This document shows positions 2,255 through 40,179 of a stretch of 64,000 nucleotides of DNA, one piece after another. The notes beneath the pieces were generated by a model. The model saw only the letters and a program-made list of their open reading frames with translations. It had not been told where the DNA came from and ran no database searches. The position numbers and the translations under genes were made by a program. The stretch's first letter is position 1. Each line of letters begins with the position of its first letter. Origin of the DNA: an uncultured Piscirickettsiaceae bacterium (GTDB lineage: Bacteria; Pseudomonadota; Gammaproteobacteria; GCF-002020875); contig CAYFNH010000001.1 in the NCBI GenBank assembly GCA_964344435.1, positions 5,303-69,302 on the forward strand. The letters are read 5' to 3'.

Positions 2255-2321
2255 TTAAAGTCCCTTTAAAGTCCCTGTGAAAATTTCCTGAAGGAATTCC
2301 CTGCGGATTGTTGAATCCACC

Positions 2322-6073: not shown

Positions 6074-6225
6074 CCTGAATCGGTTTCCTGCTGAAATGAT
6101 GACGGAATTGTAACCGAGAAGACCCGCCCCAACGCGAGAAGTTCCGCTACGCGGCCCCGCTGTTTATTGGGTACACTATCTCCTCTTCGCAAGGCACCAC
6201 AAAGGCACCACACCGGATTACATGC

Positions 6226-8079: not shown

Positions 8080-9417
8080 ATGAATGAGTTGACTCCAAGA
8101 GAGATCGTTCACGAACTGGACAAACATATCATTGGTCAGAGCGATGCCAAGCGTGCCGTCGCCATCGCCCTGCGCAACCGCTGGCGCCGGATGCAGGTGA
8201 GCGATGCACTGCGCTACGAGATTACCCCGAAGAATATCCTGATGATCGGTCCGACCGGTGTCGGCAAGACCGAGATTGCGCGCCGCCTGGCGCGCCTGGC
8301 CAACGCCCCCTTCATCAAGGTGGAGGCAACCAAGTTTACTGAAGTCGGCTATGTGGGCAGAGATGTGGAGTCGATCGTGCGCGACCTGGCAGACATTGCC
8401 ATCAAACAACTACGCGAAGAGGCGGTTGAACAGGTCAAGGGACGGGCCGAGGATGCGGCCGAGGAGCGGGTACTGGATGCGCTGCTCCCACCGGTACGTG
8501 GTAGTGGTTTCGACACGGAGTCCGAGCCGCAGGAGGAGTCCTCCACCCGGCAGAAATTCCGCAAGAAACTGCGTGAGGGTGACCTGGATGAGCGTGAGAT
8601 CGAGATCGAGGTGGCCTCCCCCAGTCTGGGAGTGGAGATTATGGGACCTCCGGGCATGGAGGAGATGACCTCACAGCTGCAGAACATATTCCAGAGCATG
8701 GGAGGCAAACCACCCAAACCGAAAAAGATGCGGGTACGGGAGGCCCTCAAGCTGCTGCTGGAGGAGGAGTCTCACAAGATGATCGACGAGGAGGAGATCA
8801 AGTCCCGCGCCATTGAGCGGGTAGAGCAGAATGGAATCGTCTTTCTCGACGAGATCGACAAGGTGGCCCAGCGCAGCGAGGGGCGCAGCGGTGGCGAGGT
8901 CTCACGGGAAGGGGTACAACGTGACCTGCTGCCACTGGTTGAGGGGAGTACCGTCAGTACCAAATATGGCATGATCAAGACCGACCACATCCTCTTTATC
9001 GCCTCGGGCGCCTTCCACCTCTCCAAGCCTTCGGATCTGATTCCGGAGCTGCAGGGCCGGCTGCCGATCCGGGTGGAGCTGGAGGCGCTGAGTGTGGAGG
9101 ACTTCACCAAGATCCTCTCCGAGCCGGATGCCTCGCTTACCGAACAGTACACCGCACTGATGGCTACCGACGGAGTCAACCTGCGCTTCGAGGAGGACGG
9201 CATCCACCGCATTGCCGAGTTCTCCTGGCAGATCAATGAAAACACCGAGAACATCGGAGCCCGCCGCCTGCATACCGTGATGGAGCGACTGCTGGAGGAG
9301 ATCTCCTTTGAAGCGGCCGACCGCAACGGAGAGGAGGTGGTGGTCGATGCAGCCTATGTCGACCGGCATCTCTCCGAGCTGGCAGAGGATGAAGACCTGA
9401 GCCGCTATATCCTGTAA
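8080..9417 (+). CDS. hslU: ATP-dependent protease HslVU, ATPase subunit
   Basis: [39 protein letters not shown]; Walker [16 protein letters not shown]. Length is 445 aa. Confidence 0.95.
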
Positions 9418-9429
9418 TATGAGTCGTCT

Positions 9430-9542
9430 CAAAAACAGTGGCAGTCTTGATCTGCAACCGTTTGTGGGCAGGGATGCCCACAGCCGAGCGACACAAGGAT
9501 GTGCTTGATCGGGTTGCAGGCAGGCGCTGCCACTGCTTTTGG
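9430..9542. repeat. intergenic inverted-repeat element, subtype 2, copy B
   Basis: The TIRs are AAAAACAGTGGCAGTCTTGATCTGCAACC and GGTTGCAGGCAGGCGCTGCCACTGCTTTT. There is an internal hairpin GTGGGCAGGGATGCCCAC and the core GAGCGACACAAGGATGTGCTTGATCGG. The copy is near-identical in architecture to copy C at 15027-15140. Confidence 0.8.
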
Positions 9543-9607
9543 AAGCATTGACATTCAGATGAAGCACGCATCAAATTGAGGAGCCTGTTTTCAAGGAGCT
9601 GTAACCC

Positions 9608-9997
9608 ATGAGCGAAAAGCGAAGCCTGACCCCAACCGAGATCCGCTATGACAAAACTGCACGGACTCTCACCCTGAATTACGAAAATGGCAACTGCTGG
9701 CAATACAGTGCAGAGTTCCTGCGAGTCTACTCCCCCTCTGCCGAGGTGCGTGGCCATGCGCCCGGCGAAGAGATTCTACAGGTGGGCAAGGAGGATGTGG
9801 CCATCGAGAAGATTGACCCGGTTGGCAACTATGCCATCTCCATCAAGTTTGATGACGGCCATGATACCGGCATCTACTCCTGGGAATGGCTCTACACCCT
9901 GGGTGAGAAGCATGACGATTACTGGCAGGAGTATCTCAACCGGCTTGAGGCGGAAGGAATCGAGCGCATGACCACCTCGGAGCGCCTTGCAACCTGA
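9608..9997 (+). CDS. DUF971 family protein (gamma-butyrobetaine hydroxylase N-terminal-like)
   Basis: The 129-aa product carries ...FDDGHDTGIYSWEWLYTLG, the hallmark of DUF971. Confidence 0.7.
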   Translation: MSEKRSLTPTEIRYDKTARTLTLNYENGNCWQYSAEFLRVYSPSAEVRGHAPGEEILQVGKEDVAIEKIDPVGNYAISIKFDDGHDTGIYSWEWLYTLGEKHDDYWQEYLNRLEAEGIERMTTSERLAT

Positions 9998-10037
9998 TAG
10001 AACCTGAAGAGGATCACCTGGCGTCGGGCGAGGATTA

Positions 10038-12250
10038 ATGCGTAAAATCGAGTGGAACGAGGGCATGAGTGTCGGTATCAGCGCCATCGACAACGACCAC
10101 CGCCGTCTGCTGGAGACCATCAACGAGTGGAGACCATCAACGAGATCAACACCGCCATCACCGAGGGCAAGACCGGCGAGCTGATTGAGCCCATCTTCCA
10201 GCGCCTGGAGCAGTACGTGGTTGAACACTTCAGTGCCGAAGAGGTGCTGATGGAGCAGTGCAACTACCGTGGGCTGGAGCGGCACAAGCTGCAACACCAG
10301 AAATTTTTCGAGAAGATCCCCCAGTTGCGCAACAAACTGCTCACCGCCAACAGCATGGAGGTGGCGATGGAGGTGAGCCTGTTTCTCTCCAGCTGGTTGA
10401 TGAACCATGTCATCATGGAGGATATCTCCTACGCGCAGCCAGCCAGTGCTGCCGGCCTCTCGGATCACTCGGAACAGAGTGAGCAGCCACTACAAGGGCT
10501 ACTCAACTGGGCCATATCCGCAATACCTCTGCGACGACGCATCCACCTTGGTGCCCTGGTGCCCATTACCGGCCTGCTGTTACTGATCAGCACTACCCTG
10601 TTCGACCACTATCAGGAGAGCAGCCGTATCCAACAGCTGCTGGGGCTGTCAAATCTGGCTGCCGATATCAACCTTGTCAGCCACCGCCTGCAGGCCGAAC
10701 GCGGCCTCTCTACCGCCTTTATCAGCTCTGGATATCAGCACTTCGAGAGCGCCCTGCAAGAGCAGCGATCCAAAACCAACCGGGCCACCACACGTTACCT
10801 TGGCAGTGTTCAGCAGCTCTCCCCCCAACTCTCCTCAGAACTGCTGCAAATGCAGCAAACCGCCCGCAAGCGAATTGCTCAGCTGTCCCAACAACGTATC
10901 CAGACCGACCAGCAGCGCCACACCATAGCGGCCATGCAGAGCTACTATACCGATACCATCCACGCCCTGCTGGCCATCTACCATGCGATGACCGGGCTGA
11001 CACAGGATCAACAGCTCAGTGGCCATATCCAGAGCATCTCGGCCCTGGTTCAGATGAAAGAGGCCAATGGCCTGAAACGAGCGCAGGGCACTGCCATCCT
11101 GCAGGGAGAGCTCTCCCCCACTGTCGGGCTTCAACTGCTTTCGAAACTGATCGGTGAGCACACCGCCTACCAGCGTATTTTCAGTAACAGCGCCGACCGG
11201 CAACAGCAGCAGCGCTGGCTGGCACTCTCCTCCAGCAGCCCCCATGTGGATGCAAAGGCGGCTGAACAGGTGCTACTGCGTTACCTCAGCGAAAATACCT
11301 CACAGCAGCCATTTGCGGCCGACCACTGGTTCGCACTGATGTCAGAACGAATGGATCAGACCGAGAGCTTCATTGAGCAGGTACTGCACGATATCGAACT
11401 CCGCGCCAGGCAGCTGGCGGATGAGAGCCGCCAGCAGCTTCTCCTCTCAACCCTGTTATGGCTATTGCTGCTACTGTTCACCTCCGTGCTCTCCTGGCTA
11501 CTCAGCCGCAGCGTGATCGAGCCCATCCACCATCTGACCGAAGGCATGGAGCTGCTGTCCCAGGGGGATCGGGGTACACGCTTCTGTCAGCTCTTTGCCA
11601 GGGATGAACTGCGCAAACTCTATGCGGTCTACGAGAGTAGTCGGCGCAATCTGCTCAAGTCCGATATCTCCATCAATATGCAACTGCTGAAACAGGAATT
11701 TACCTATGACCTGAGTGAACGCCAGCGCGATGCGTATGCCGAACTGGCCTCGACCGATTCACTGACCGGGGCCATCAACCGGCGCAAGTTTCTGGAGCTG
11801 GCCGAGAGAGAGTTGCTACGTGCCCGTCGCCAGCAAACCATCCTCTGCTGCCTGATGCTCGATATCGACCATTTCAAGCGGGTCAATGACGAGTATGGTC
11901 ACGACGTGGGGGACAAGGTACTACAGTCCTTTTTTCAGACCTGTTACCGCACGGTACGGGAGTGTGATCTTGTAGCCCGGATTGGTGGGGAAGAGTTTGT
12001 GGTACTGCTCACCAACAGTGACCGCACCAGCGCCCTCTCACTGGCTGAGCGCATTCGCAGTGAGGTGGAGCGGCTACAAATTGCAGTGAGTGCACAGGAG
12101 GAGATTACCATTACCGTCAGCATCGGCCTCTGCTGCCAGTTGATCACCTCCCAGAACATCGAAATGCTGATCAAGGAGGCCGACAATGCGCTCTATGCCG
12201 CCAAGCATCAGGGGCGCAACCGGGTTGTGGTCTGCAGCACAACAGAGTAA
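10038..12250 (+). pseudogene. hemerythrin-NIT-TM/HAMP-GGDEF diguanylate cyclase, frame-disrupted by a 17-bp tandem duplication
   Basis: The ATG at 10038 encodes MRKIEWNEGMSVGISAIDNDHRRLLETINE (bacteriohemerythrin N-terminus) in frame 0. TGGAGACCATCAACGAG at 10111-10127 is repeated exactly at 10128-10144, shifting into the frame of ORF 10052..12250. That ORF continues the hemerythrin fold (INTAITEGK...HFSAEE...HKLQHQKFF...WLMNHVIMEDISY). It goes on with a NIT-like domain (LQAERGLSTAFISSG), a TM segment and a GGDEF domain with RECD I-site and GGEEF. Confidence 0.6.
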
Positions 12251-12258
12251 GTTGGCCA

Positions 12259-14997
12259 TCAATCCGCTGCCGTCAAATGCCTCTGTAACACCCTCCGCAG
12301 CTGCTTCTCTTCAACCGGCTTGCTCAACACCCCATCACAACCCGCCGCTACCATCTCCTCTTCGGTACCCTTCATCACATCGGCGGTCAGGGCATAGATC
12401 GGCCGGCTGAACCCCGTCTTACGCAGGGCCGTGGTCGCCTCCACCCCACTCATCACCGGCATCTGCTTGTCCATCAGCACCAGATCCACCTCCTCGGCCA
12501 ACCCCTTGTCGACCCCCTCCCGGCCATTATCGGCCACCACCACCTCGGCCCCGAGTCGCTTGATCATCTCGGCAACCAGCAGCTGGATCATCTGCGTATC
12601 CTCCACCACCAGCACGGTCCCACGCAGCTGGATCCGCTCCTCCGCATTTCGCTCTGCCTCTTCGTCGATTCGCTGTTCACTGGGGCGGAACGGCAGCTTC
12701 ACCGTAAAGTGGCTGCCAACCCCCTCCGCACTCTCAACCGCAATATCACCGCCCATCATCTCCACCAGATTCCATGAGATATTGAGCCCGAGACCGGTGC
12801 CTCCAAACTTGCGGGTGATCGAACTGTCGGCCTGCTCAAAGGGTCTGAACAGCCGCTTGACCACCTCAGGTGACATGCCAAACCCGGTATCCTTGACCTC
12901 AAACCAGATCTGCTGGCTGCCACTATCAAGCGATACCATCAAGGTGACCTCGCCCTGCTCGGTGAACTTCACCGCATTGCTCAGTAGATTCATCAGAACC
13001 TGTCCGATCCGCACCGGGTCACCCACCAGTTTGTGACGGGGCTGGAAGGTTTGCACCACCTCAAAGCCAACCCCTGCCTCCTGGGTGCGCAGCGAGAAGA
13101 CATCTTTCAATTCATGTATCAGCGCATCCAGGCTGTACTCCTCATCCACAATCTCGAACTTGCCCGCCTCAATCTTGGAGAGGTCGAGGATGTCATTGAT
13201 GAGGGTGAGTTGGGTACGGCCCGACACGGTGATGGCATGCAACATACCGCTCTCCTTCTCGGTGAGCTTGTCGGTTATCAACCGGTTCAGCATCTCCGAG
13301 TAGCCGATGATCGAGGTCAACGGGGTACGTAGCTCATGACTCATCATCGCCAGGAACTGATCCTTGGCCCGGTTGGCCCGGATCGCATTCTCGGCATCCA
13401 GAATCTCGCGCAGGTCACTCAACACCACCACTTCGGCCGCACCTTGTCGCGTACACTGCAGCTGCGTGCGTGCGATGCGTACCGGAATTTTCTCCCCCTC
13501 TGTAGAGCAGAGCTGCCCCTGCTCATCAAACAGCTCATCGATATGTTTGCCAAACAGGGCCCGCTGCCCCATCCCGGTGAGCGTAACCGCCTTGGGGTTG
13601 CTGCGCAGAATTCTCTGCTCCTCGTTTAGCACCAACAGCCCCTGCTCCATCACCTCGATAATGAGGTCGGTCTCCTGCTTGCTGCGCTCGAGCTCTCTGG
13701 ACTGCTGTTCCAGCATCTCCTTGCGCTCGTTGACCTCCTCACTATAGACCTGGAATGCAGAGGCGAGACTGTTGACCTCAAGCACCCGGCTGATGGGGTG
13801 GTTATTGATATCGTCCCGCACCACCGAATCCCGCAGCCGCTCGATCGGGCTCGACAACAACCTGGCCCGGCGGTAGGTGAGCAGCACCACAAACAGGAAG
13901 AGGACAACGGATGCCAGCACAATCTGGCGCTTCAGCGCCTCCACCGGCTGCATCATCTCTTCCCGATCCTGCTTCACCACCATACCCCAGCCCAGTGCCG
14001 GGAGCCAGCGCCAGAGCGCATAGGCCTCTCTGCAGCTCGACTCCAGCACCCATCCATCGCCATCCTTCTGCCCCAGTGCCCGTGTCATCGGAAACTGCAT
14101 CGGTGATTGCTCCCGCAGGGCGATACAGTCCGCATCGGGCTGTCTGCGCTCCATCTCGCGGAAGTGGTTGAGGAAGGTTAGACCGCGCCTGACCTTGTCA
14201 TCGCGCCAGTGCGCCACCAGCACCTCACCGGTCTTCCCCAGGCCACTATAGCTCTCCATCAGGTCACGGAAACGTTGCAGGGGGAATGGGGCTACCAGTA
14301 CTGCCAGAATCTCTTTGCGGTACGGAGAGTAGACCGGCACCCCGATCCACGCCATCGAGCGTTCCGAAATCTCGCTGAAACCGTACCGGGAGACGGCAGC
14401 CTGCCCGGTTTGACGCACCTGCTGGATCATCCGGGCCAGTGGCGAAGGGGTATCCACCATCAGCTCATCCAGCCGCTCACCGTGGCTGATCAGGTAACGA
14501 TCTCCGGTATTGGCCGTCATGAATCGCCCCTGCAGATCAAACAGCAGCAGATCCTTGTTTATCACCAGAGAGAGTTCTCGGCGTATACTACCCAGTTTGG
14601 TCTGGTGATAAATCTGCTGTATCGCCTCAGTGCTATCCATATACACCCAATCATCACCCGTCTGCTGCTGGGGACGACTCTGTATTACACCATGAAGTGC
14701 CGCCCTCAAAGCCCGGCTGTTGGCCACCTGCTGCAGGGCCTGGCGCTCCACTTCATACATCGACTCGATCCGGTTAATGCGGAACTGAGCATGGTATTTC
14801 AGTGAATCCACCACAGTATCCACCACCACTCGCTCGGAGACGAAATAGATCAGCCACCCCAGTGCGGTAACTGCAAACAGTATGGTCAACAATGTGCTAC
14901 GCAGCTGGTGGTAGAGCAGAGGCTGCGGGGTTCCCCGATAGCCCTTGCTCTCAGCGCGTGGCAAACGTTTGCCAAACATGGTGATAGGCTCCCCCAA
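12259..14997 (-). CDS. hybrid sensor histidine kinase (periplasmic sensor, HAMP, PAS, HisKA, HATPase, C-terminal REC)
   Basis: The 912-aa product has two TM segments. H-box FLAMMSHELRTPLTSIIGYSEM; G-boxes DTGFGM and GGTGLGL. The C-terminal receiver reads VLVVEDTQMIQ...LVLMDKQMPVMSG. Confidence 0.88.
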   Translation of the reverse strand: MGEPITMFGKRLPRAESKGYRGTPQPLLYHQLRSTLLTILFAVTALGWLIYFVSERVVVDTVVDSLKYHAQFRINRIESMYEVERQALQQVANSRALRAALHGVIQSRPQQQTGDDWVYMDSTEAIQQIYHQTKLGSIRRELSLVINKDLLLFDLQGRFMTANTGDRYLISHGERLDELMVDTPSPLARMIQQVRQTGQAAVSRYGFSEISERSMAWIGVPVYSPYRKEILAVLVAPFPLQRFRDLMESYSGLGKTGEVLVAHWRDDKVRRGLTFLNHFREMERRQPDADCIALREQSPMQFPMTRALGQKDGDGWVLESSCREAYALWRWLPALGWGMVVKQDREEMMQPVEALKRQIVLASVVLFLFVVLLTYRRARLLSSPIERLRDSVVRDDINNHPISRVLEVNSLASAFQVYSEEVNERKEMLEQQSRELERSKQETDLIIEVMEQGLLVLNEEQRILRSNPKAVTLTGMGQRALFGKHIDELFDEQGQLCSTEGEKIPVRIARTQLQCTRQGAAEVVVLSDLREILDAENAIRANRAKDQFLAMMSHELRTPLTSIIGYSEMLNRLITDKLTEKESGMLHAITVSGRTQLTLINDILDLSKIEAGKFEIVDEEYSLDALIHELKDVFSLRTQEAGVGFEVVQTFQPRHKLVGDPVRIGQVLMNLLSNAVKFTEQGEVTLMVSLDSGSQQIWFEVKDTGFGMSPEVVKRLFRPFEQADSSITRKFGGTGLGLNISWNLVEMMGGDIAVESAEGVGSHFTVKLPFRPSEQRIDEEAERNAEERIQLRGTVLVVEDTQMIQLLVAEMIKRLGAEVVVADNGREGVDKGLAEEVDLVLMDKQMPVMSGVEATTALRKTGFSRPIYALTADVMKGTEEEMVAAGCDGVLSKPVEEKQLRRVLQRHLTAAD

Positions 14998-17846: not shown

Positions 17847-17904
17847 TTCAATTGACTGGTTATGACAACCACCATCCTATCGGGTTCCCCCATGCGCTTC
17901 CACA

Positions 17905-17934
17905 AAAAAGGGCCGCAACAGCGGCCCTTTTTGA
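17905..17934 (-). terminator. rho-independent terminator downstream of the cytochrome c gene
   Basis: AAAAAA, then stem GGGCCGC, loop AACA, stem GCGGCCC, then TTTTT. On the minus strand the hairpin is followed by a U run. Confidence 0.75.
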
Positions 17935-17951
17935 CAGCAGTTCCTGACCAG

Positions 17952-18992
17952 TTACAGACCAGACTGCGACAGCATGTACTCTATCGCCGCCTTCAGCTCT
18001 GCATCCTTCAGAGAGGAGCCACCACGTGGCGCCATCGCGGTACCGGCTACCCCGGCAATCGCACTCTTGACCAACCCATCTACGCTGCCCGCCTTCTGCA
18101 GACGTGGCTCCCAGTTCTCCTTGACGCCGGACTGGGGAGCATTGAGGGCTGGAGCCGCAGGGCCATGACAGGCAAAACAGGCTCCCTGGAACAGGGTGGC
18201 ACCATCGGCCGCACCACCTGTTGCTGCTGGTGCAGCTGCTACCTCGGCAGGCTTCTCTTGTGCTGCCGGAGCCGGGGCTGCCGCCTCTTCTGCAGCAGCA
18301 ACGGGAGCCGCAGGGGCAGTGGCTACCTTGGCTGCTGGCGCCCCCATCGAACCCAGATAGGCGGTAATCGCAGCGATATCGGCATCACTCAGCACCGAAG
18401 CAACATCACGCATCATCTTGTTGGGATCATTCTCCCGGGTACCCTCACGGAATGCATGCAACTGAGCGACGGTATAGCCCTCCAGCTGACCGCTCAGGGC
18501 CGGCCACCGGGCCAGATCATTACCCGCAGCATCCGGACCATGACAGGCCATACAGGCACTGATGCCACGCGCCATATCACCGCCCTGATAGAGCGCCTTG
18601 CCCTGGGCAACCAACGCTGCATCTCCGGCGGATCCCGCCTTGCCGGCAACGGTTGCATAGTAGGCACCGAGGTTGGCCATATCGGCATCACTCAACCCCA
18701 TGGCCTGACCGGTCATCAGTGCATCCTTGCGTGCGCCTGACTTGAAGTCCTGCAGCTGCTTGACCATATAGCCACCATTCTGTCCTGCCAGAGAAGGAAC
18801 CGCCTTGGTCTTTCCCGGATTCATCGGATCCGGAAACGCAGGATTGCCTTCACCATTCATACCGTGGCACGCACCACAGACAGCGGCCTTGGCCTTACCT
18901 GCATTCACATCACCCGCAGCTGCTGCCGCACCAGAGACGGCCAGCGCAACCGCTGCAACCAGAGTGTTTGTCCAATCGACCTTCTTCATCAA
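17952..18992 (-). CDS. triheme c-type cytochrome: diheme cytochrome c4 fused to a C-terminal cytochrome c5-like domain
   Basis: A signal peptide and three CXXCH motifs (CGACHG, CMACHG, CFACHG). The first two domains resemble cytochrome c4. An Ala/Pro-rich linker is followed by a class I monoheme domain. Confidence 0.85.
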   Translation of the reverse strand: MMKKVDWTNTLVAAVALAVSGAAAAAGDVNAGKAKAAVCGACHGMNGEGNPAFPDPMNPGKTKAVPSLAGQNGGYMVKQLQDFKSGARKDALMTGQAMGLSDADMANLGAYYATVAGKAGSAGDAALVAQGKALYQGGDMARGISACMACHGPDAAGNDLARWPALSGQLEGYTVAQLHAFREGTRENDPNKMMRDVASVLSDADIAAITAYLGSMGAPAAKVATAPAAPVAAAEEAAAPAPAAQEKPAEVAAAPAATGGAADGATLFQGACFACHGPAAPALNAPQSGVKENWEPRLQKAGSVDGLVKSAIAGVAGTAMAPRGGSSLKDAELKAAIEYMLSQSGL

Positions 18993-28881: not shown

Positions 28882-30174
28882 ATGAACGAATCGAAAGCGC
28901 TTCAACCCCTGATCCTGGTGGTGGATGACAACCCCATCAACCTGCGTGTGGTCGGTGGGGAGCTGAAAAACAGCGGCAAGTACCGCATCACCTTTGCCAA
29001 CAGCGGTGCTGCAGCCCTGCAGCAGATCGAGAAACAGAAGCCCGACCTGATTCTACTCGACATCATGATGCCGGAGATGAGTGGCCATGAAGTCTGTACC
29101 CGGCTCAAGGAGAACCATGAGACCCAACACATCCCGGTGATCTTTCTCACCGCGATGGGCGATACCGATGATATCGTCAAGGGGTTCGAGCTTGGTGGCT
29201 CCGACTACATCACCAAGCCCTTCACCCCGACCGTGCTGCTGGCCCGGGTGGATACCCACCTGCAACTCTACCTCTCGCGCAAGCGGGAACAGGAGCTGCT
29301 CTCCAAGGAGCGCATCTACGCCTACCAGAACGGGATGACGCAGATGCGCACCGAGATTCTCCATAATCTGGGCAATGCGATGAGTGGTTTCAGCTCTCGC
29401 ATCATGGAGAAGCAGAAGATGTCACACAGCATTACCGAGATCGGGCATGCGCTGGCTACTACAGTACAGATTCTGGACAACAGCCAGGAGCGGCAGCGGG
29501 TCGAGCAGGTGCTCACCAAGGCTTCGGAGATGCTGACCCAAACCCTGCCGCAGATCATCGACAAGGATGAGCAGAGCCTGAGCGGGATGCACGACTATGT
29601 TCGCACCATTCTCTTCACCCTGAAAAACCTGACCCAGGAGGGGTTCCACTCCACCACCGTGGAGCTGGGCTCTCTATTCGACGATGTCACCACGCTGCTG
29701 CAGAGTGAACTGGATCGGCTGCAGATCCAGTTCCACATCGAGGGGACTCCACCCTACCCTTCCCTGTTTCTCCCCCGAGGTCCGTTCAGCCATGCCATTT
29801 TTGACATCATCAAGAATAGCTGCGAGGCGATTGAGGAGGAGATGAAACAGGGTAAGCTCGCTGCGGGAGAGGGGCAGATCACCGCAACCATACAGCGCGT
29901 CGAGCAACCCCTTCGCTCACAGGGGGAGGCCCACTACACCATTGAGATGGGTGACAATGGTGTCGGAATTCTGCAGGAGAACCTATCCGAGCTGGCCAAG
30001 AAGCAGTTTTCCACCAAACATCAGGGAGTGGGCCTGGGGCTGCACAGTGCCAGTAATTTCATCAACTCCATCCATGGCACCATCGCGTTCAACAGTCCGG
30101 GGCTGCACCAGGGAGCAAGCGTCCGTATCGCTCTGCCAATCGAGCCTGAAGCTCCCACTAACCACCCAGAGTAA
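28882..30174 (+). CDS. response-regulator receiver fused to a histidine-kinase-like (HATPase_c) domain
   Basis: The REC domain has LILVVDDNPINLRV...DLILLDIMMPEMSG...KP. A possible HisKA_2/HWE-like H-box is EILHNLGNAMSG. The G-boxes are DNGVGI and GVGLGL. Confidence 0.75.
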   Translation: MNESKALQPLILVVDDNPINLRVVGGELKNSGKYRITFANSGAAALQQIEKQKPDLILLDIMMPEMSGHEVCTRLKENHETQHIPVIFLTAMGDTDDIVKGFELGGSDYITKPFTPTVLLARVDTHLQLYLSRKREQELLSKERIYAYQNGMTQMRTEILHNLGNAMSGFSSRIMEKQKMSHSITEIGHALATTVQILDNSQERQRVEQVLTKASEMLTQTLPQIIDKDEQSLSGMHDYVRTILFTLKNLTQEGFHSTTVELGSLFDDVTTLLQSELDRLQIQFHIEGTPPYPSLFLPRGPFSHAIFDIIKNSCEAIEEEMKQGKLAAGEGQITATIQRVEQPLRSQGEAHYTIEMGDNGVGILQENLSELAKKQFSTKHQGVGLGLHSASNFINSIHGTIAFNSPGLHQGASVRIALPIEPEAPTNHPE

Positions 30175-33100
30175 CCAGCTGCTCCAGCTTCTCTGCGGCC
30201 TGTTCAAACTGCATCCCGAACACCGCCTCGGTCACTGCCTCGAACTGTGCTCTGACCTCATCCCCCTGCGTTGCCAGCAACTGCTCCAGCAGATCCTCTG
30301 CGGCAAAGTCATGGTTGTGGAGGGCCTCCATCAATTGGTGATAGAGCGCCTGCTCCGCCGCATCCTCAAGACACAAAGCGCCTTCAGCTGCCGCTGTTTG
30401 TGGAGCGGCTGCGACAACCCCCAGCTCCTCGGCCACTTTTCGAGTCTGCTGCTGTAGGCGCCCACAGGCTGCCTCCACCTGATCAAACAGCGTCTCCTCA
30501 ACCTCATCCTCCCCCTTGAGCTGTTCGGAGAGGTCTTCAGACAGGGCAAAGAGCTCCTCTGCAGCCAGATTACCGCTGGCCCCCTTGAGGTTGTGAATCA
30601 GTGACTGCGCCTGATCACGCTCCCCCTGCTGATAACACTGCTTTGCCTCCTGCACGTCGGTAACCGACTGTTGATTGAGGCGATCGAGTAGCTGAAACAG
30701 CCCTTTCCGGTCTTGCTGCATGCGCGCCAGCGCCTTCTCCAGATTCAGAATCGCCAATGGCTGCTCTGCATCAGTCTGCTTCTGACCGTCTTCTGCTCCA
30801 CCACTGGCGGGTACTACCGGCCTGGCATCTTCCTGCGACAAACCACACCAACGGGCCACCGTGGTGAAAAGCTTCTCGGTATCGATCGGCTTGGCGAGAT
30901 GATCATCCATCCCGGCCTGCAGACAGACCTCACGATCCTCATTGCGTGCATTGGCGGTCATTGCGATCACCGGTACACTGCTCCACTCTGCATTCTCTCG
31001 AATCTTCTGCGTTGCCTGCACCCCGTCCATCACCGGCATCTGCATATCCATCAACACGGCATCGATATTGGTGCCATAACGCTCCATCCACTCCAGCGCC
31101 TCGCCACCATGGTTGGCCAGCATCACCATCGCACCAGCCCCCTCCAGCATCTTGCAGGCTACCTCCTGGTTGATCTCATTATCCTCCACCAGCAGCAGTT
31201 TGAGCCCGTCCAGCCGTATTTCGGAACCAAGCACATCCCGGTGGCCGCTACCCTCGGATGGCTGAATAAAGCGGATCAGGGTATCGAACAGGTTCGATGG
31301 GGTGATCGGTTTGGTCAACAGGGCATCAACAAAGTTGGCCTCTGCCTTGTGCTCGGTCAACAACTGCTGGCCATAGGCGGTCTCCATGATAATCACCGGT
31401 GGGTGCTGATTGCCCTGCTTGATCTGCATCGATGCCGCCAACCCATCGATACCCGGCAGGCGCCAATCCATCAGGATGAAGTCAAACGGCTCGCCCACCT
31501 CGTCCATCTTCAGCGCCAGACTCACTGCACGCTCACCATCATAGGCCAGCATGGTCTGGCAACCAAAGCTGGAGAGAATGTGGTCAAGCACCCGTACCGC
31601 CTCCTGACTATCATCCACAATCAGTATCCGCAGCTTCTCGAACGAGGCGCTGTCATAGGCACGATAGTCGATCTCCCGGTCGCTCAATGCAAACGGCAAC
31701 TCGACAATAAACTCGGTGCCCTCTCCCAACTGACTCTCCACCCGCAGGGTACCGCTCATCAGCTGAATGAGCTGCTGCACGATGGTCAACCCCAGCCCGG
31801 TTCCCCCATAGCGGCGGGTGATCGAGTTGTCCGCCTGCTCAAAGGGTTGGAAAACCTTGTCCACCGCCTCCTCACTCATCCCCACACCGGTATCCTTCAC
31901 CCGAAAGATCAACTGTGGCGCCTGCTCCGTCCCCGGCACCAGCCGCACACTGAGGGTAATCAGCCCGCGATCGGTAAACTTGATCGCATTGCTCATCAGG
32001 TTGGAGAGGATCTGGTTGAGACGCAGGCTATCCCCCACCAGATTCACCGGCACATTGTCACTGCGTTCGACCAGTAGTTCGATATCCTTGTCCTTGGCCA
32101 TTACCGAGCTGACATTGACCAGATTATCGATCACCGCCTCCAGCTGAAATGGTACCTGCTCTATCCCCAGCTTCCCTGCCTGAATCTTGGAGTAGTCGAG
32201 AATGTCATTGATGATCCCGAGCAGCGAGTTGGCTGCGGCATCGATCTTCTTGAGCTGAATCCGGTGTCTGGAGGCGAGCTCATCCTCCTGCAACAGCAGA
32301 TAGACCAGACCGGTAATCGCATTCATCGGGGTACGAATCTCGTGGCTCATATTGGCCAGAAACTCATCCTTCGCCTTGCTCGCCTGTATCAACTCATGGG
32401 TGCGGATCGCCACCTCCTTTTCCAGCGCCTGATTACGCTCGATCAAGATACGGTTGATCTGCTCATTGAACAGTGAGGCAACCAGACCAAGACCAATAAT
32501 CAGTAGTGCGATCAAGGTGATCTCTACACCGATATCGAGATTGTGCAGTTCAACATTGAACAGTCCGGTGGAGACACCGCAAACACCGCCGCTGTAGAAC
32601 TCGGCTGCCGCCATCCCGGTGTAGTGCATTCCGGCTACAGCAACCCCCATCACCATCGCCACCAGCAGGCGGGGGATAAAGGCACGTCTCACCTTGATCA
32701 TCGGCACATAGTAGAGCAGCAGCAGTGCCACCAGAGAGACGCTCACCGCAATCACCACCGACAAGATCCACAGACCCGGGGTGTAACGCAGCATCGCTGG
32801 TGCCAACAGGGCCGCCATTCCGGTGTAGTGCATGGTGGCAACACCAGCTCCCATCAACAACGCCCCGGCAACTACCCGTCCCCAGCGCAGCTCCTTGAAG
32901 CGGATCTGGCGCAGCGCCAATGCCGAAACCGAGACAGCGGCCACGAAGGAGAACAGGGTCATCCCCAAGTCATAATGGATCTCTACAGGAATAGAGAAGG
33001 CGAGCATGGCCACAAAGTGCATCACGAAGATGCCTCCCCCCAGGGTCACCGAGGCCCCCATCCACCAGTAGCGGGCAGAGTCGCGCTGCTGCTGGTAACC

Positions 33101-33262
33101 ATTGCGCATGTGGGTGATTAGGCTCAGGGTGGTGTAGGCGGCAAATACCGCAACCAGATAGGAGAGCAACACCAGCAGCGGATCATAACTGGCCTGCAGC
33201 AGTTCACCACCAACCCGCTCCAGCAGAAAATATCCCTGCATCAACTCATGGAAAGCCGTCAT
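30158..33262 (-). CDS. MHYT-domain hybrid sensor histidine kinase (MHYT 7TM, HisKA, HATPase, REC, REC, HPt)
   Basis: The N-terminal membrane domain carries three motifs: MHFVAML, MHYTGMAALL and MHYTGMAAAEF. H-box FLANMSHEIRTPMNAITG; G-boxes DTGVGM and GGTGLGL. Two receivers (FILMDWRLPGIDG; VLMDMQMPVMDG) and a C-terminal HPt (HNLKGASGNLAA). Confidence 0.88.
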   Translation of the reverse strand: MTAFHELMQGYFLLERVGGELLQASYDPLLVLLSYLVAVFAAYTTLSLITHMRNGYQQQRDSARYWWMGASVTLGGGIFVMHFVAMLAFSIPVEIHYDLGMTLFSFVAAVSVSALALRQIRFKELRWGRVVAGALLMGAGVATMHYTGMAALLAPAMLRYTPGLWILSVVIAVSVSLVALLLLYYVPMIKVRRAFIPRLLVAMVMGVAVAGMHYTGMAAAEFYSGGVCGVSTGLFNVELHNLDIGVEITLIALLIIGLGLVASLFNEQINRILIERNQALEKEVAIRTHELIQASKAKDEFLANMSHEIRTPMNAITGLVYLLLQEDELASRHRIQLKKIDAAANSLLGIINDILDYSKIQAGKLGIEQVPFQLEAVIDNLVNVSSVMAKDKDIELLVERSDNVPVNLVGDSLRLNQILSNLMSNAIKFTDRGLITLSVRLVPGTEQAPQLIFRVKDTGVGMSEEAVDKVFQPFEQADNSITRRYGGTGLGLTIVQQLIQLMSGTLRVESQLGEGTEFIVELPFALSDREIDYRAYDSASFEKLRILIVDDSQEAVRVLDHILSSFGCQTMLAYDGERAVSLALKMDEVGEPFDFILMDWRLPGIDGLAASMQIKQGNQHPPVIIMETAYGQQLLTEHKAEANFVDALLTKPITPSNLFDTLIRFIQPSEGSGHRDVLGSEIRLDGLKLLLVEDNEINQEVACKMLEGAGAMVMLANHGGEALEWMERYGTNIDAVLMDMQMPVMDGVQATQKIRENAEWSSVPVIAMTANARNEDREVCLQAGMDDHLAKPIDTEKLFTTVARWCGLSQEDARPVVPASGGAEDGQKQTDAEQPLAILNLEKALARMQQDRKGLFQLLDRLNQQSVTDVQEAKQCYQQGERDQAQSLIHNLKGASGNLAAEELFALSEDLSEQLKGEDEVEETLFDQVEAACGRLQQQTRKVAEELGVVAAAPQTAAAEGALCLEDAAEQALYHQLMEALHNHDFAAEDLLEQLLATQGDEVRAQFEAVTEAVFGMQFEQAAEKLEQLVTLGG

Positions 33263-39398: not shown

Positions 39399-40179
39399 AT
39401 GGATATCGCCTCACTGATTGGTGTCATCTCCGGGCTGGGAATGGTGTTCGGGGCGATTGTCTACGAAGGCAATCTCGACCAGTTCGTCAGTGGACCGGGT
39501 CTGATGATTGTATTTGGCGGTACCATCTCCGCAACCCTGCTCAACTTCCAGCTCAAGGATGTGATTATCGGCATGCGCGCTGTTCACCGGGTATTCACCT
39601 CCAGTCGGGAAAATCCCAATGATGTGCTGTCGCAGATGCTGATTCTGAGCCGTACCGCCCAGGTCAAGGGACCAACCGCACTGGAGAAGCTGATCCAGAA
39701 AGAGGACTCCTGGTTTCAGCGCAAGGCGATTGAGCTCACTGCTGACAACTCGGATGAGTCGGTGATCCGCTCTGCACTACGTTCCGAAATCAGTTCGGTA
39801 AAGCTGCGCAACATGATCACCGAGGATATCTTTCGCAAGATGGCCACCTATGCCCCCCGCCTTCGGCATGATTGGAACCCTGATCGGTCTGATCCAGATG
39901 CTGGCCGCAATGGATGACCCCTCCCAGGTGGGGCCGGCGATGGCAACCGCCCTGACCACCACCTTTTATGGCTCACTGCTCTCCACGGTACTGTTCAACC
40001 CGATTGCCGGGAAGCTGCGCGCCAAGACCATTGAGTCGATCACCAACCTCGAGATCATCTACCTCACTGCGGTCAGCATCAAGCACGGAGAGCACCCGAT
40101 CGCCCTCTACGAACAGGCAGTGGCACTGATCCCATTGGGCCAGCGCCGCCCCTTCGAGATGCCCGAGGTGGGTGCGTAG
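39399..40179 (+). pseudogene. MotA/PomA-family stator protein, split by a +1 frameshift in a C6 homopolymer
   Basis: ORF 39399..39917 (MDIASLIGVISGLGMVFGAIV...KMATYAP) and ORF 39850..40179 (PAFGMIGTLIGLIQMLAAMDDPSQVGPAMATALTTTFYG...) are the N- and C-halves of one MotA/PomA-like protein. Removing one C from CCCCCC at 39853-39858 restores ...ATYAPAFGMIGTLIG.... Confidence 0.65.

What the first reader, a model, noticed from the sequence alone, without database searches (positions are those of the whole stretch)
10038..12250. Hemerythrin-NIT-GGDEF diguanylate cyclase interrupted by an exact 17-bp tandem duplication
The gene encodes an N-terminal bacteriohemerythrin, an O2/NO-binding di-iron domain. 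This is followed by a NIT-like domain with the ELQxERG-type motif (putative nitrate/nitrite sensing), a TM helix and linker, and a GGDEF domain with intact RxxD I-site and GGEEF. A hemerythrin-NIT-GGDEF combination would be an input-rich c-di-GMP synthase. TGGAGACCATCAACGAG at 10111-10127 is duplicated in tandem at 10128-10144. That is +17 nt, which separates the first 30 codons of the hemerythrin helix A from the rest of the protein. The junction LLETINE | INTAI is seamless when one copy is deleted. A 17-bp perfect duplication is not a typical base-calling error. It could be a genuine slipped-strand or inactivating mutation, or an assembly artefact.
Basis: seen in the sequence. Interest (0 to 1): 0.6.

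Follow-up and report, generated by a model that had tools for sequence, protein, structure and literature searches.

The report
Real frameshift in a c-di-GMP sensor gene
A membrane-bound signalling enzyme gene (iron-based oxygen/redox sensor plus nitrate-type sensor plus c-di-GMP synthase) in an uncultured marine gammaproteobacterium is broken by a genuine 17-base tandem duplication seen in many independent sequencing runs, which is an ordinary recent gene-inactivating mutation and not an assembly error.

Summary
TGGAGACCATCAACGAG occurs twice in exact tandem at 10111-10127 and 10128-10144, where about 6e-6 such repeats are expected by chance. Removing one copy restores a 731-aa ORF (10038-12250). 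Its layout is bacteriohemerythrin, TM1, periplasmic NIT, TM2, HAMP-like linker, then GGDEF with GGEEF and an RxxD I-site.

The duplication is not an assembly artefact. Eight contigs from seven separate runs (two accession series) and two assembly sources are 100% identical to the window and all carry both copies. The intact 731-aa product is absent from a collection of about 15 billion proteins.

Homologues show a single copy. These include a 56%-identical protein from a sister MAG and 61 members of the same Hr-NIT family. The first iron ligand (H21) is invariant in that family.

The native reading frame now ends after 48 codons. The remaining 707 codons start at a GTG created by the repeat junction and lack H21.

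No conserved residue has decayed on either side, so the mutation looks recent. The most likely reading is a young, population-fixed loss-of-function allele, or at best an oxygen-blind truncated enzyme.

The domain architecture is uncharacterised but already present in databases, for example RefSeq WP_305472594.1. A second reproducible frameshift, in motA, lies in the same window. Interest is low.

The parts
10030..10034 (+). Shine-Dalgarno-like GAGGA, 3 nt upstream of the native ATG
   Evidence: Read directly from the sequence. Best anti-SD duplex -7.1 kcal/mol.
10038..10184 (+). Native start followed by the frameshifted 48-codon ORF. The first 30 codons encode the true hemerythrin N-terminus, including iron ligand H21. 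The next 18 codons are out of frame, followed by a stop.
   Evidence: ORF list. The first 30 residues align without gaps to six homologues.
10111..10127 (+). Copy 1 of the 17-bp unit TGGAGACCATCAACGAG. It contains GGAG at 10112-10115.
10128..10144 (+). Copy 2 of the 17-bp unit. This is the inserted material relative to homologues.
   Evidence: The DNA alignment shows a 17-column gap in both homologues.
10127..12250 (+). 707-codon ORF starting at a GTG formed by the repeat junction (the last G of copy 1 plus the TG of copy 2). It encodes hemerythrin lacking residues 1-24, then TM1-NIT-TM2-HAMP-like-GGDEF.
   Evidence: It equals protein P0001, which gene finders called on 18 public contigs. Frame and SD-like signal checked.
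10047..10438 (+). Bacteriohemerythrin domain, residues 4-128 of the repaired protein, interrupted by the duplication. The H-HxxxE-HxxxH-HxxxxD ligands are H21, H58, E62, H77, H81, H118 and D123.
   Evidence: NCBIfam NF033749 and TIGR02481. Pfam PF01814. DcrH-Hr PDB 2AVK, E=2.6e-16. Ligand positions.
10541..10606 (+). Predicted transmembrane helix 1 (residues 163-184).
   Evidence: Kyte-Doolittle 19-residue window mean 2.06.
10679..11395 (+). NIT domain (residues 209-447), predicted to be periplasmic. It carries the LQAERG and KExxGxxRAxG motifs.
   Evidence: Pfam PF08376, 124 bits. NasR PDB 4AKK, E=1.1e-9.
11432..11518 (+). Predicted transmembrane helix 2 (within residues 460-488).
   Evidence: Hydropathy window mean 2.32.
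11498..11653 (+). HAMP-like linker (residues 482-533).
   Evidence: Pfam PF00672, 19.8 bits, below the cut-off of 25. The homologue P0002 passes with 32.8 bits, and 33 of 61 family members match.
11747..12223 (+). GGDEF diguanylate cyclase domain (residues 565-723). The I-site RECD is at 11957-11968 and the GGEEF active-site motif at 11984-11998.
   Evidence: Pfam PF00990, 164 bits. TIGR00254, 182.6 bits. Motifs.

Best explanation
The duplication is a genuine, recent 17-bp tandem duplication. It is fixed, or nearly fixed, in a clonal population of an uncultured marine gammaproteobacterium.

It frameshifts a gene of the hemerythrin-TM-NIT-TM-HAMP-GGDEF family after codon 30. The full-length enzyme would, by inference from its domains, combine two inputs to control c-di-GMP synthesis. 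One is a cytoplasmic di-iron O2/redox sensor. The other is a periplasmic nitrate/nitrite-type sensor. That full-length enzyme can no longer be made.

Ribosomes starting at the native ATG stop after 48 codons. The remaining 707 codons can be translated only from an internal, junction-created GTG that lies inside the upstream ORF. That product would lack the N-terminal loop and the first iron ligand (H21) of hemerythrin.

The most likely state is therefore a young loss-of-function allele, that is, a pseudogene in the making.

Shown: the duplication, its reproducibility across read sets, the single-copy ancestral state, the domain content, and the loss of H21 from the long ORF.

Inferred: the lack or loss of protein function, the sensing roles of the domains, and how recent the event is.
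For: 1. Eight contigs from runs ERR2281798, 800, 801, 803, 804, 805 and SRR22722180 all carry both copies and are 100% identical to the window over 4.3-8.1 kb. They come from per-run Logan assemblies and an ENA MEGAHIT k127 assembly. Any assembly with k larger than 17 needs reads that span the junction.
2. The exact 731-aa single-copy product is absent from a collection of about 15 billion proteins. The cluster of the 707-aa product has a single member sequence.
3. Homologues have no insertion here. The DNA of two of them shows a 17-nt gap exactly opposite one copy. Six proteins align without gaps. The H21-to-H58 spacing is 37 residues in 59 of 61 family members, as in the repaired protein.
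4. H21, H58, E62, H81, H118 and D123 are invariant in the 61 sequences, and H77 is at least 90% conserved. H21 is encoded only in the orphaned 48-codon ORF.
5. Every family-invariant residue is still intact on both sides of the break. The SD and ATG are also intact. This argues for a recent event.
6. The surrounding genes are intact housekeeping genes, so this is not a generally poor assembly.
7. A second frameshift, in motA, is reproducible in the same way. Genuine disrupting mutations are therefore carried by this lineage.
Against: - No read-level data could be inspected, so a minority single-copy allele cannot be excluded.
- The 2.1-kb downstream ORF is completely intact. It has a possible start (GTG 10127) with GGAG about 11 nt upstream. 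A truncated and still active cyclase is therefore possible.
- The independence of the runs is only inferred from their accession numbers. Six of the seven belong to one project.
- No expression data are available.
Confidence: 0.65

Rival explanations
1. Neo-start truncation. The duplication removes the hemerythrin input but the gene stays functional. Translation from the junction-created GTG at 10127 yields a 707-aa TM-NIT-TM-HAMP-GGDEF enzyme with a crippled hemerythrin stub. This enzyme would be an oxygen/redox-blind cyclase, either NIT-only regulated or deregulated, and possibly selected for.
For: - The GTG exists only because of the junction. It is in frame with all 707 downstream codons and is preceded by GGAG about 11 nt upstream (best anti-SD duplex -6.4 kcal/mol, spacing 10).
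- Gene finders chose it as the start on 18 contigs.
- The downstream ORF has no further lesion.
- Domain modules in this family are exchangeable. P0007 lacks NIT, and other members carry MCP or HK outputs.
Against: - The GTG lies inside an ORF that is translated from a stronger SD/ATG, so elongating ribosomes should occlude it.
- A four-helix bundle lacking a third of helix A and one Fe2 ligand is likely to misfold ahead of TM1.
- The intactness of the ORF is equally explained by a recent event.
- There are no expression data.
Confidence: 0.25
2. Reversible on/off switch. The two 17-bp copies act as a contingency repeat, and gain or loss of one copy by replication slippage toggles the gene.
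For: Perfect tandem repeats can be lost by RecA-independent slippage (general knowledge). Two other perfect 11-bp tandem duplications lie in intergenic DNA of the window, so short duplications recur here more often than chance would give.
Against: - All 8 contigs inspected have exactly two copies.
- The single-copy product is nowhere in the collection, and neither allele was found in JGI metagenomes.
- Known contingency loci use many copies of 1-7-nt units, not two copies of 17 nt.
- None of the 61 homologues shows length variation at this point.
Confidence: 0.05
3. Assembly or sequencing artefact. The organism has one copy and the gene is intact.
For: Short tandem duplications can arise in library preparation or amplification. 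Six of the seven runs come from one project and may share material.
Against: - The same junction was recovered in seven separately assembled runs, by two pipelines (k=127 MEGAHIT and Logan) and from two accession series.
- A repeat shorter than k cannot be created by graph traversal without junction-spanning reads.
- The intact product was never called.
Confidence: 0.03
4. Recoding or footprint. Either programmed ribosomal frameshifting reads through the duplication, or the repeat is a target-site duplication left by an excised mobile element.
For: Nothing specific. A 17-nt insertion could formally be bypassed by a +1 shift. An exact duplication without microhomology resembles a target-site duplication.
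Against: - There is no homopolymer or slippery heptamer at the site, and no inverted repeats or structure nearby.
- Homologues have no shift.
- Read-through would add 6 residues to helix A, whereas the spacing is fixed at 37 in 59 of 61 homologues.
- No element remnant is present, and a 17-bp target-site duplication is atypical for bacterial IS elements (general knowledge).
Confidence: 0.02

Closest known systems
Vibrio cholerae Bhr-DGC (VC1216, UniProt Q9KSP0; Schaller et al. 2012, as reviewed in PMC9388753)
   Same: Both have an N-terminal bacteriohemerythrin fused to a C-terminal GGDEF cyclase. In Bhr-DGC the diferrous form is about 10-fold more active than the diferric form. That is the best model for how the hemerythrin input of the intact protein would work.
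   Different: Bhr-DGC has only the hemerythrin and GGDEF domains. It has no NIT domain, and from the domain figure described and general knowledge it has no transmembrane helices or HAMP. The gene studied here is frameshifted, and its long ORF lacks the first iron ligand. No direct sequence comparison with Q9KSP0 was possible with these tools.
Desulfovibrio vulgaris DcrH (hemerythrin-containing chemoreceptor; PDB 2AVK/2AWC)
   Same: DcrH holds the closest solved hemerythrin domain (E=2.6e-16). It also has two transmembrane helices, a periplasmic region, a HAMP domain and a cytoplasmic hemerythrin.
   Different: In DcrH the hemerythrin is C-terminal and the output is an MCP signalling domain. 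Its periplasmic region is not NIT.
Klebsiella oxytoca NasR (NIT-ANTAR nitrate/nitrite-responsive antiterminator; PDB 4AKK)
   Same: The NIT domain is homologous over about 255 residues (E=1.1e-9). It includes the HxLQxERGxS motif. It also keeps the Arg of the QERALG motif, which has been proposed to line the nitrate pocket.
   Different: NasR is a soluble cytoplasmic protein with an RNA-binding output. In the protein studied here the Glu preceding that Arg is Lys (LKRAQG), and the ligand is untested.
Uncharacterised Hr-NIT-GGDEF proteins in databases, e.g. WP_305472594.1 'bacteriohemerythrin' of Psychrobium sp. 1_MG-2023 (738 aa) and PKF57547.1 of an Alteromonadales bacterium
   Same: These have the same full-length architecture and similar length, with 37% identity over the sensor half. 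Of the 61 aligned family members, 52 carry a GGDEF output.
   Different: Those genes are intact. They have only automatic annotation. No study of the architecture was found in the searchable literature.
Ordinary frameshift pseudogenes caused by short tandem duplication or homopolymer slippage
   Same: A single indel whose length is not a multiple of three breaks an otherwise conserved ORF. The same window holds a second case, in motA, with a run of six C.
   Different: The junction happens to create an in-frame GTG preceded by GGAG. This leaves open some expression of a truncated product.

Membership tests
Bacteriohemerythrin domain (PF01814 / NF033749) | HMM score above the curated cut-off | tested here: met
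   On the repaired protein: PF01814 43.7 bits against 25.3, NF033749 117 bits against 84, TIGR02481 115 bits against 51.75.
Bacteriohemerythrin domain (PF01814 / NF033749) | Complete H-HxxxE-HxxxH-HxxxxD set of seven iron ligands within one polypeptide | tested here: not met
   All seven ligands (H21, H58, E62, H77, H81, H118, D123) are encoded. H21, however, lies in the 48-codon ORF and the other six lie in the 707-codon ORF.
Bacteriohemerythrin domain (PF01814 / NF033749) | Binds a di-iron centre and reacts with O2 or changes redox state | not testable with these tools
   This needs purified protein and spectroscopy.
NIT domain (PF08376) | HMM score above the cut-off and homology to the NasR NIT structure | tested here: met
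   124 bits against 24.9, covering profile positions 3-238 of 239. 4AKK E=1.1e-9. Q213, E215 and R216 of the LQxERG motif are invariant in the 61 family members.
NIT domain (PF08376) | Binds nitrate or nitrite | not testable with these tools
   Binding is established only for NasR-type proteins. It has not been tested for any Hr-NIT protein.
HAMP linker (PF00672) | HMM score above the cut-off, positioned directly after TM2 | tested here: inconclusive
   19.8 bits against a cut-off of 25 at residues 482-533, directly after the second hydrophobic helix. The homologue P0002 scores 32.8 bits, and 33 of 61 members match at E<=1e-3.
GGDEF diguanylate cyclase (PF00990 / TIGR00254) | Full-length domain match with a GG[DE]EF active-site motif | tested here: met
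   164 bits over profile positions 1-161 of 161. GGEEF at residues 644-648.
GGDEF diguanylate cyclase (PF00990 / TIGR00254) | RxxD inhibitory site five residues upstream of GGEEF | tested here: met
   RECD at 635-638, followed by LVARI and then GGEEF.
GGDEF diguanylate cyclase (PF00990 / TIGR00254) | Synthesises c-di-GMP from GTP | not testable with these tools
   This needs an enzyme assay or an in vivo reporter.
Hr-TM-NIT-TM sensor family (defined here from database hits) | Co-linear full-length alignment, with hemerythrin and NIT both detected | tested here: met
   64 hits at E<=1e-30. 61 were aligned, and all 61 have both domains.
Frameshift pseudogene / disrupted gene | Reading frame broken relative to intact homologues by an indel whose length is not a multiple of three | tested here: met
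   A +17 nt insertion relative to two homologous DNAs and 61 proteins.
Frameshift pseudogene / disrupted gene | The lesion is real in the DNA and not an assembly error | tested here: met
   Seven runs, two assembly pipelines, 100% identical contigs. Raw reads were not inspected.
Frameshift pseudogene / disrupted gene | No functional product is made | not testable with these tools
   This needs proteomics or expression of the allele.
Phase-variable contingency locus | Repeat copy number varies between samples or cells | tested here: not met
   Two copies in all 8 contigs. The single-copy product is absent from the collection. Minority alleles within samples could not be examined.
Programmed ribosomal frameshift | A slippery site and the shift conserved in homologues | tested here: not met
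   There is no slippery run at 10100-10190, and all homologues are in one frame.

The most novel reading that the evidence does not exclude
The duplication is a rewiring event and not a dead end. By frameshifting the native start and creating GGAG-N11-GTG at the junction, it converts a dual-input cyclase into one that has lost its oxygen/redox input. The original enzyme would be gated by di-iron O2/redox sensing and by periplasmic nitrate-type sensing. The perfect 17-bp repeat would allow occasional reversion, giving a heritable toggle between O2-gated and O2-blind c-di-GMP synthesis. Together with the reproducible motA frameshift 30 kb away, this could mark adaptation of a clonal lineage to a fixed, non-motile niche.
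Probability: 0.1. Interest if true: 0.5.

Novelty: new member of a known kind. Interest (0 to 1): 0.22.

Why it matters
For annotation, this locus should be labelled as a frameshifted Hr-NIT-GGDEF gene. It should not be labelled as the 707-aa 'complete' protein that gene finders now report, nor dismissed as an assembly error.

For biology, the single allele matters little, because disrupted accessory signalling genes are common.

The wider point is the family behind it. At least 61 sequence clusters combine a cytoplasmic di-iron hemerythrin with a periplasmic NIT domain. Most drive c-di-GMP synthesis, and some drive chemotaxis or kinase outputs. None appears to have been studied. An intact member would be a reasonable candidate for testing whether bacteria integrate oxygen/redox and nitrate/nitrite signals in one receptor. 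Candidates are P0002 from the sister MAG or the Psychrobium protein WP_305472594.1.

Tried and rejected
- Source genome: a peptide-pattern scan of GTDB representative genomes found only distant GGDEF, hemerythrin or NIT proteins. Neither the source species nor an orthologue turned up.
- Either allele in JGI metagenomes: a gapped DNA pattern matching one or two copies gave 0 hits.
- Sample origin: literature searches for PRJEB17505 and for the run and analysis accessions gave 0 papers. The habitat is unknown.
- Organism: placement rests only on PolA similarity. This was 88% to two unnamed MAGs, 72% to a Thiotrichales MAG, and 67-68% to the Solemya pervernicosa gill symbiont, Thiohalobacter and Sulfurivermis.
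- Syntenic orthologue: genus-level relatives have different genes between coaX and the hslU side. The 56% homologue P0002 sits at another locus. No orthologous single-copy site could therefore be shown, only homologous ones.
- RNA elements: Rfam at gathering thresholds found nothing in the window.
- Promoter and terminator scan of 9300-12500: no promoter-like site, and terminator-like sites at chance level. The gene lies 40 nt after the DUF971 gene and may be co-transcribed with it.
- Origin of the duplication: there are no inverted repeats, no microhomology at the borders, and no other copy of the unit in the window. The nearby 21-nt quasi-repeat (10134-10175) has the wrong period to explain a 17-nt gain.
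- Considered and rejected as the main explanation: assembly artefact, programmed frameshifting, transposon footprint, classical phase variation (see the rival explanations).
- Structure prediction was not run. It would not discriminate between the hypotheses.
Full report
**Observation.** The 17-mer TGGAGACCATCAACGAG occupies window 10111-10127 and is repeated exactly at 10128-10144. The base before the array is C and the base after it is A. Neither extends the repeat, so there are exactly 2.0 copies, with no ambiguity of register and no microhomology at the borders. By chance about 6e-6 such events are expected in 64 kb of this composition. Sixty first-order Markov simulations never produced a perfect tandem duplication longer than 11 bp. 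With both copies present, the ATG at 10038 opens a 48-codon ORF ending at 10184. The rest of the gene runs in another frame to the stop at 12250. Removing one copy gives a 731-codon ORF whose junction reads LLETINE|INTAI.

**What the gene encodes.** HMM searches on the repaired protein gave the following:
- Pfam Hemerythrin, residues 13-123, 43.7 bits.
- Pfam NIT, residues 209-447, 124 bits.
- Pfam GGDEF, residues 565-723, 164 bits.
- A sub-threshold HAMP match, residues 482-533, 19.8 bits against a cut-off of 25.
- NCBIfam bacteriohemerythrin, 117 bits against a cut-off of 84.

The hemerythrin part is most similar to the solved DcrH hemerythrin domain (2AVK, E=2.6e-16). The NIT part is most similar to NasR (4AKK, E=1.1e-9).

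Two strongly hydrophobic stretches, residues 163-184 and 460-488, flank NIT. The inferred topology is cytoplasmic hemerythrin, TM1, periplasmic NIT, TM2, HAMP-like linker and cytoplasmic GGDEF.

The cyclase has GGEEF at residues 644-648, with an RxxD site (RECD) five residues upstream. The hemerythrin signature H-HxxxE-HxxxH-HxxxxD (reviewed in PMC9388753) maps to H21, H58, E62, H77, H81, H118 and D123.

**Is the duplication real?** A search with the repaired protein returned a 707-aa protein, P0001, that is 100% identical and begins METINEINT…. This is the product gene finders call from a GTG at 10127. That product is recorded on 18 public contigs.

Eight of these contigs were retrieved. One is an ENA MEGAHIT (k127) contig from ERR2281804. 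The other seven are per-run Logan contigs from ERR2281798, 800, 801, 803, 804, 805 and SRR22722180. All eight contain both copies and are 100% identical to the window over 4.3-8.1 kb.

A 17-bp repeat is shorter than the k-mer of either assembly pipeline (k127 in the ENA contig names; 31 for Logan, from general knowledge). It therefore cannot be generated by graph traversal without reads that span the junction. Conversely, the exact single-copy 731-aa product is absent from the collection of about 15 billion proteins, and the cluster of P0001 has one member. A gapped DNA pattern that would match either allele found nothing in JGI metagenomes.

An assembly artefact is therefore very unlikely. 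What remains untested is whether a minority of single-copy reads exists within samples.

**Ancestral state.** The closest intact homologue is P0002 (730 aa, 56% identity). It comes from a sister MAG (GCA_964344805.1) in the same project, whose PolA is 88% identical to the window's. Its DNA and that of a 42% homologue align to the window with a single 17-column gap exactly opposite one copy.

A HMMER search of 1.84 billion representatives with the sensor half (window 10127-11560) gave 64 hits at E<=1e-30. In 61 aligned full-length members, every one has both hemerythrin and NIT. Of these, 52 have GGDEF, 7 have an MCP signalling domain, 2 have a histidine kinase and 1 also has EAL.

H21, H58, E62, H81, H118 and D123 are invariant in these members, and H77 is at least 90% conserved. 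The H21-to-H58 spacing is 37 residues in 59 of 61, exactly as in the repaired protein. The single-copy sequence is thus the family norm, and there is no room for a six-residue insert in helix A.

**Consequences.**
- Native ATG. It has a GAGGA three nucleotides upstream, so it should still be used. It now yields a 48-residue peptide made of 30 true residues, including H21, followed by 18 out-of-frame residues.
- The remaining 707 codons. They are intact. The junction itself creates a GTG (the last G of copy 1 plus the TG of copy 2) in their frame, with the GGAG of copy 1 about 11 nt upstream.
- Any product from that GTG. It would lack the N-terminal loop, part of helix A and H21. By established hemerythrin chemistry (my own knowledge, consistent), H21 is one of the two histidines on the O2-binding iron.
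- Position of the GTG. It lies inside an ORF translated from a better start, so I expect weak initiation from it.

In V. cholerae Bhr-DGC the redox state of the di-iron site changes cyclase activity about 10-fold. Losing the site would at least uncouple the enzyme from that input.

All family-invariant residues on both sides of the break are still intact. This points to a recent event and does not tell a young pseudogene from a still-used truncated gene.

I give about 0.65 to loss of function, 0.25 to a functional truncated enzyme, 0.05 to a reversible switch, and a few per cent to an artefact or other readings.

**Context.** The window is ordinary core chromosome. It contains coaD, rsmD, two M16 peptidases, ftsY, hslVU and a DUF971 gene, then this gene. 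A convergent hybrid histidine kinase ends 8 nt after its stop. After that come coaX, birA, dsbA, engB, polA, an RND efflux system, gltBD, motAB, purEK, topA, dprA, def-fmt-rsmB, trkAH, gmk, spoT and recG.

By PolA similarity the organism is an uncultured gammaproteobacterium. Identities are 72% to a Thiotrichales MAG and 67-68% to the Solemya pervernicosa gill symbiont, Thiohalobacter and Sulfurivermis. The habitat could not be established.

In two genus-level relatives the stretch beyond coaX holds different signalling genes. This cyclase therefore belongs to a flexible complement of sensors, where gene loss is common.

**Comparison with what is known.**
- Hemerythrin-GGDEF fusions are known and one has been characterised (Bhr-DGC).
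- A hemerythrin on a two-TM HAMP receptor is known (DcrH).
- NIT is a nitrate/nitrite sensor in NasR and was predicted as such in many receptors.
- The combined Hr-NIT architecture is present in databases under generic names, for example WP_305472594.1 'bacteriohemerythrin' from Psychrobium.
- I found no paper on it in the searchable library.

The finding is therefore a mutated member of a catalogued but unstudied family. It is not a new kind of system.

**Verdict.** What is there is a real, recent, apparently fixed frameshift. This is a good annotation catch with low intrinsic novelty.

Interest is 0.22. The most novel reading not excluded is a duplication-created neo-start that gives an O2-blind cyclase and is possibly reversible. 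I give it a probability of about 0.1.

Noticed in passing
window 39399-40179 (C-run at 39853-39858): motA is split by a frameshift. ORF 39399-39917 (172 aa, MotA_N) ends …FRKMATYAP and then runs out of frame. ORF 39850-40179 (109 aa, MotA_ExbB) continues …PAFGMIGTLIGLIQML. A run of six C is present where five would give one 259-aa MotA. The truncated 172-aa product is called on 18 contigs, including Logan runs ERR2281799, 803, 804, 805, 806 and SRR22722180. The repaired MotA is absent from the protein collection. motB downstream is intact.
   Followed up: partly
window 2255-2276 and 6191-6212: Two further perfect tandem duplications of 11 bp, TTAAAGTCCCT x2 and AAGGCACCACA x2. Both lie in intergenic gaps, the first downstream of coaD and the second in the gap between the M16 peptidase gene and ftsY. 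Including the 17-bp case, 3 perfect duplications of at least 10 bp are seen against 0.17 expected. Short tandem duplication may be a recurrent mutation type in this lineage.
   Followed up: partly
window 8089-8098 (inside hslU): All seven Logan contigs that carry the locus begin at window position 8089 or 8098, whichever run they come from. This suggests a constant branch point in the assembly graphs. It may come from k-mers of the conserved hslU 5' end that are shared with the co-occurring sister species.
   Followed up: no
L019 4125-6317; L030 2069-2494; L029 and L030 beyond coaX: The sister MAG GCA_964344805.1 (PolA 88% identical) carries its intact Hr-NIT-HAMP-GGDEF gene (P0002) at a different locus, between an M3 peptidase and a rhodanese. 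It also has a stand-alone 141-aa hemerythrin next to a hybrid kinase. The region beyond coaX differs among the three relatives.
   Followed up: partly
alignment A3 (proteins P0133-P0230): The Hr-TM-NIT-TM sensor module is coupled to several outputs. Of the 61 members, 52 have GGDEF, 7 an MCP signalling domain, 2 a histidine kinase with receiver, 3 extra PAS domains and 1 GGDEF-EAL. This suggests a portable dual-sensor cassette that appears to be unstudied.
   Followed up: partly
window 12259-14997 (-) and 30158-33262 (-): Two large hybrid histidine kinases lie near the gene. One is convergent with the cyclase gene, with only 8 nt between the two stop codons. The other has N-terminal MHYT repeats, a predicted membrane gas/redox sensor, and two receiver domains. 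The window is rich in signal-transduction genes.
   Followed up: no
window 17952-18992 (-): The 346-aa ORF on the minus strand between dsbA and engB corresponds in position to a di-haem cytochrome c gene in both relatives. The overlapping plus-strand ORF 17862-18740 that I scanned has no family match and is probably spurious.
   Followed up: no
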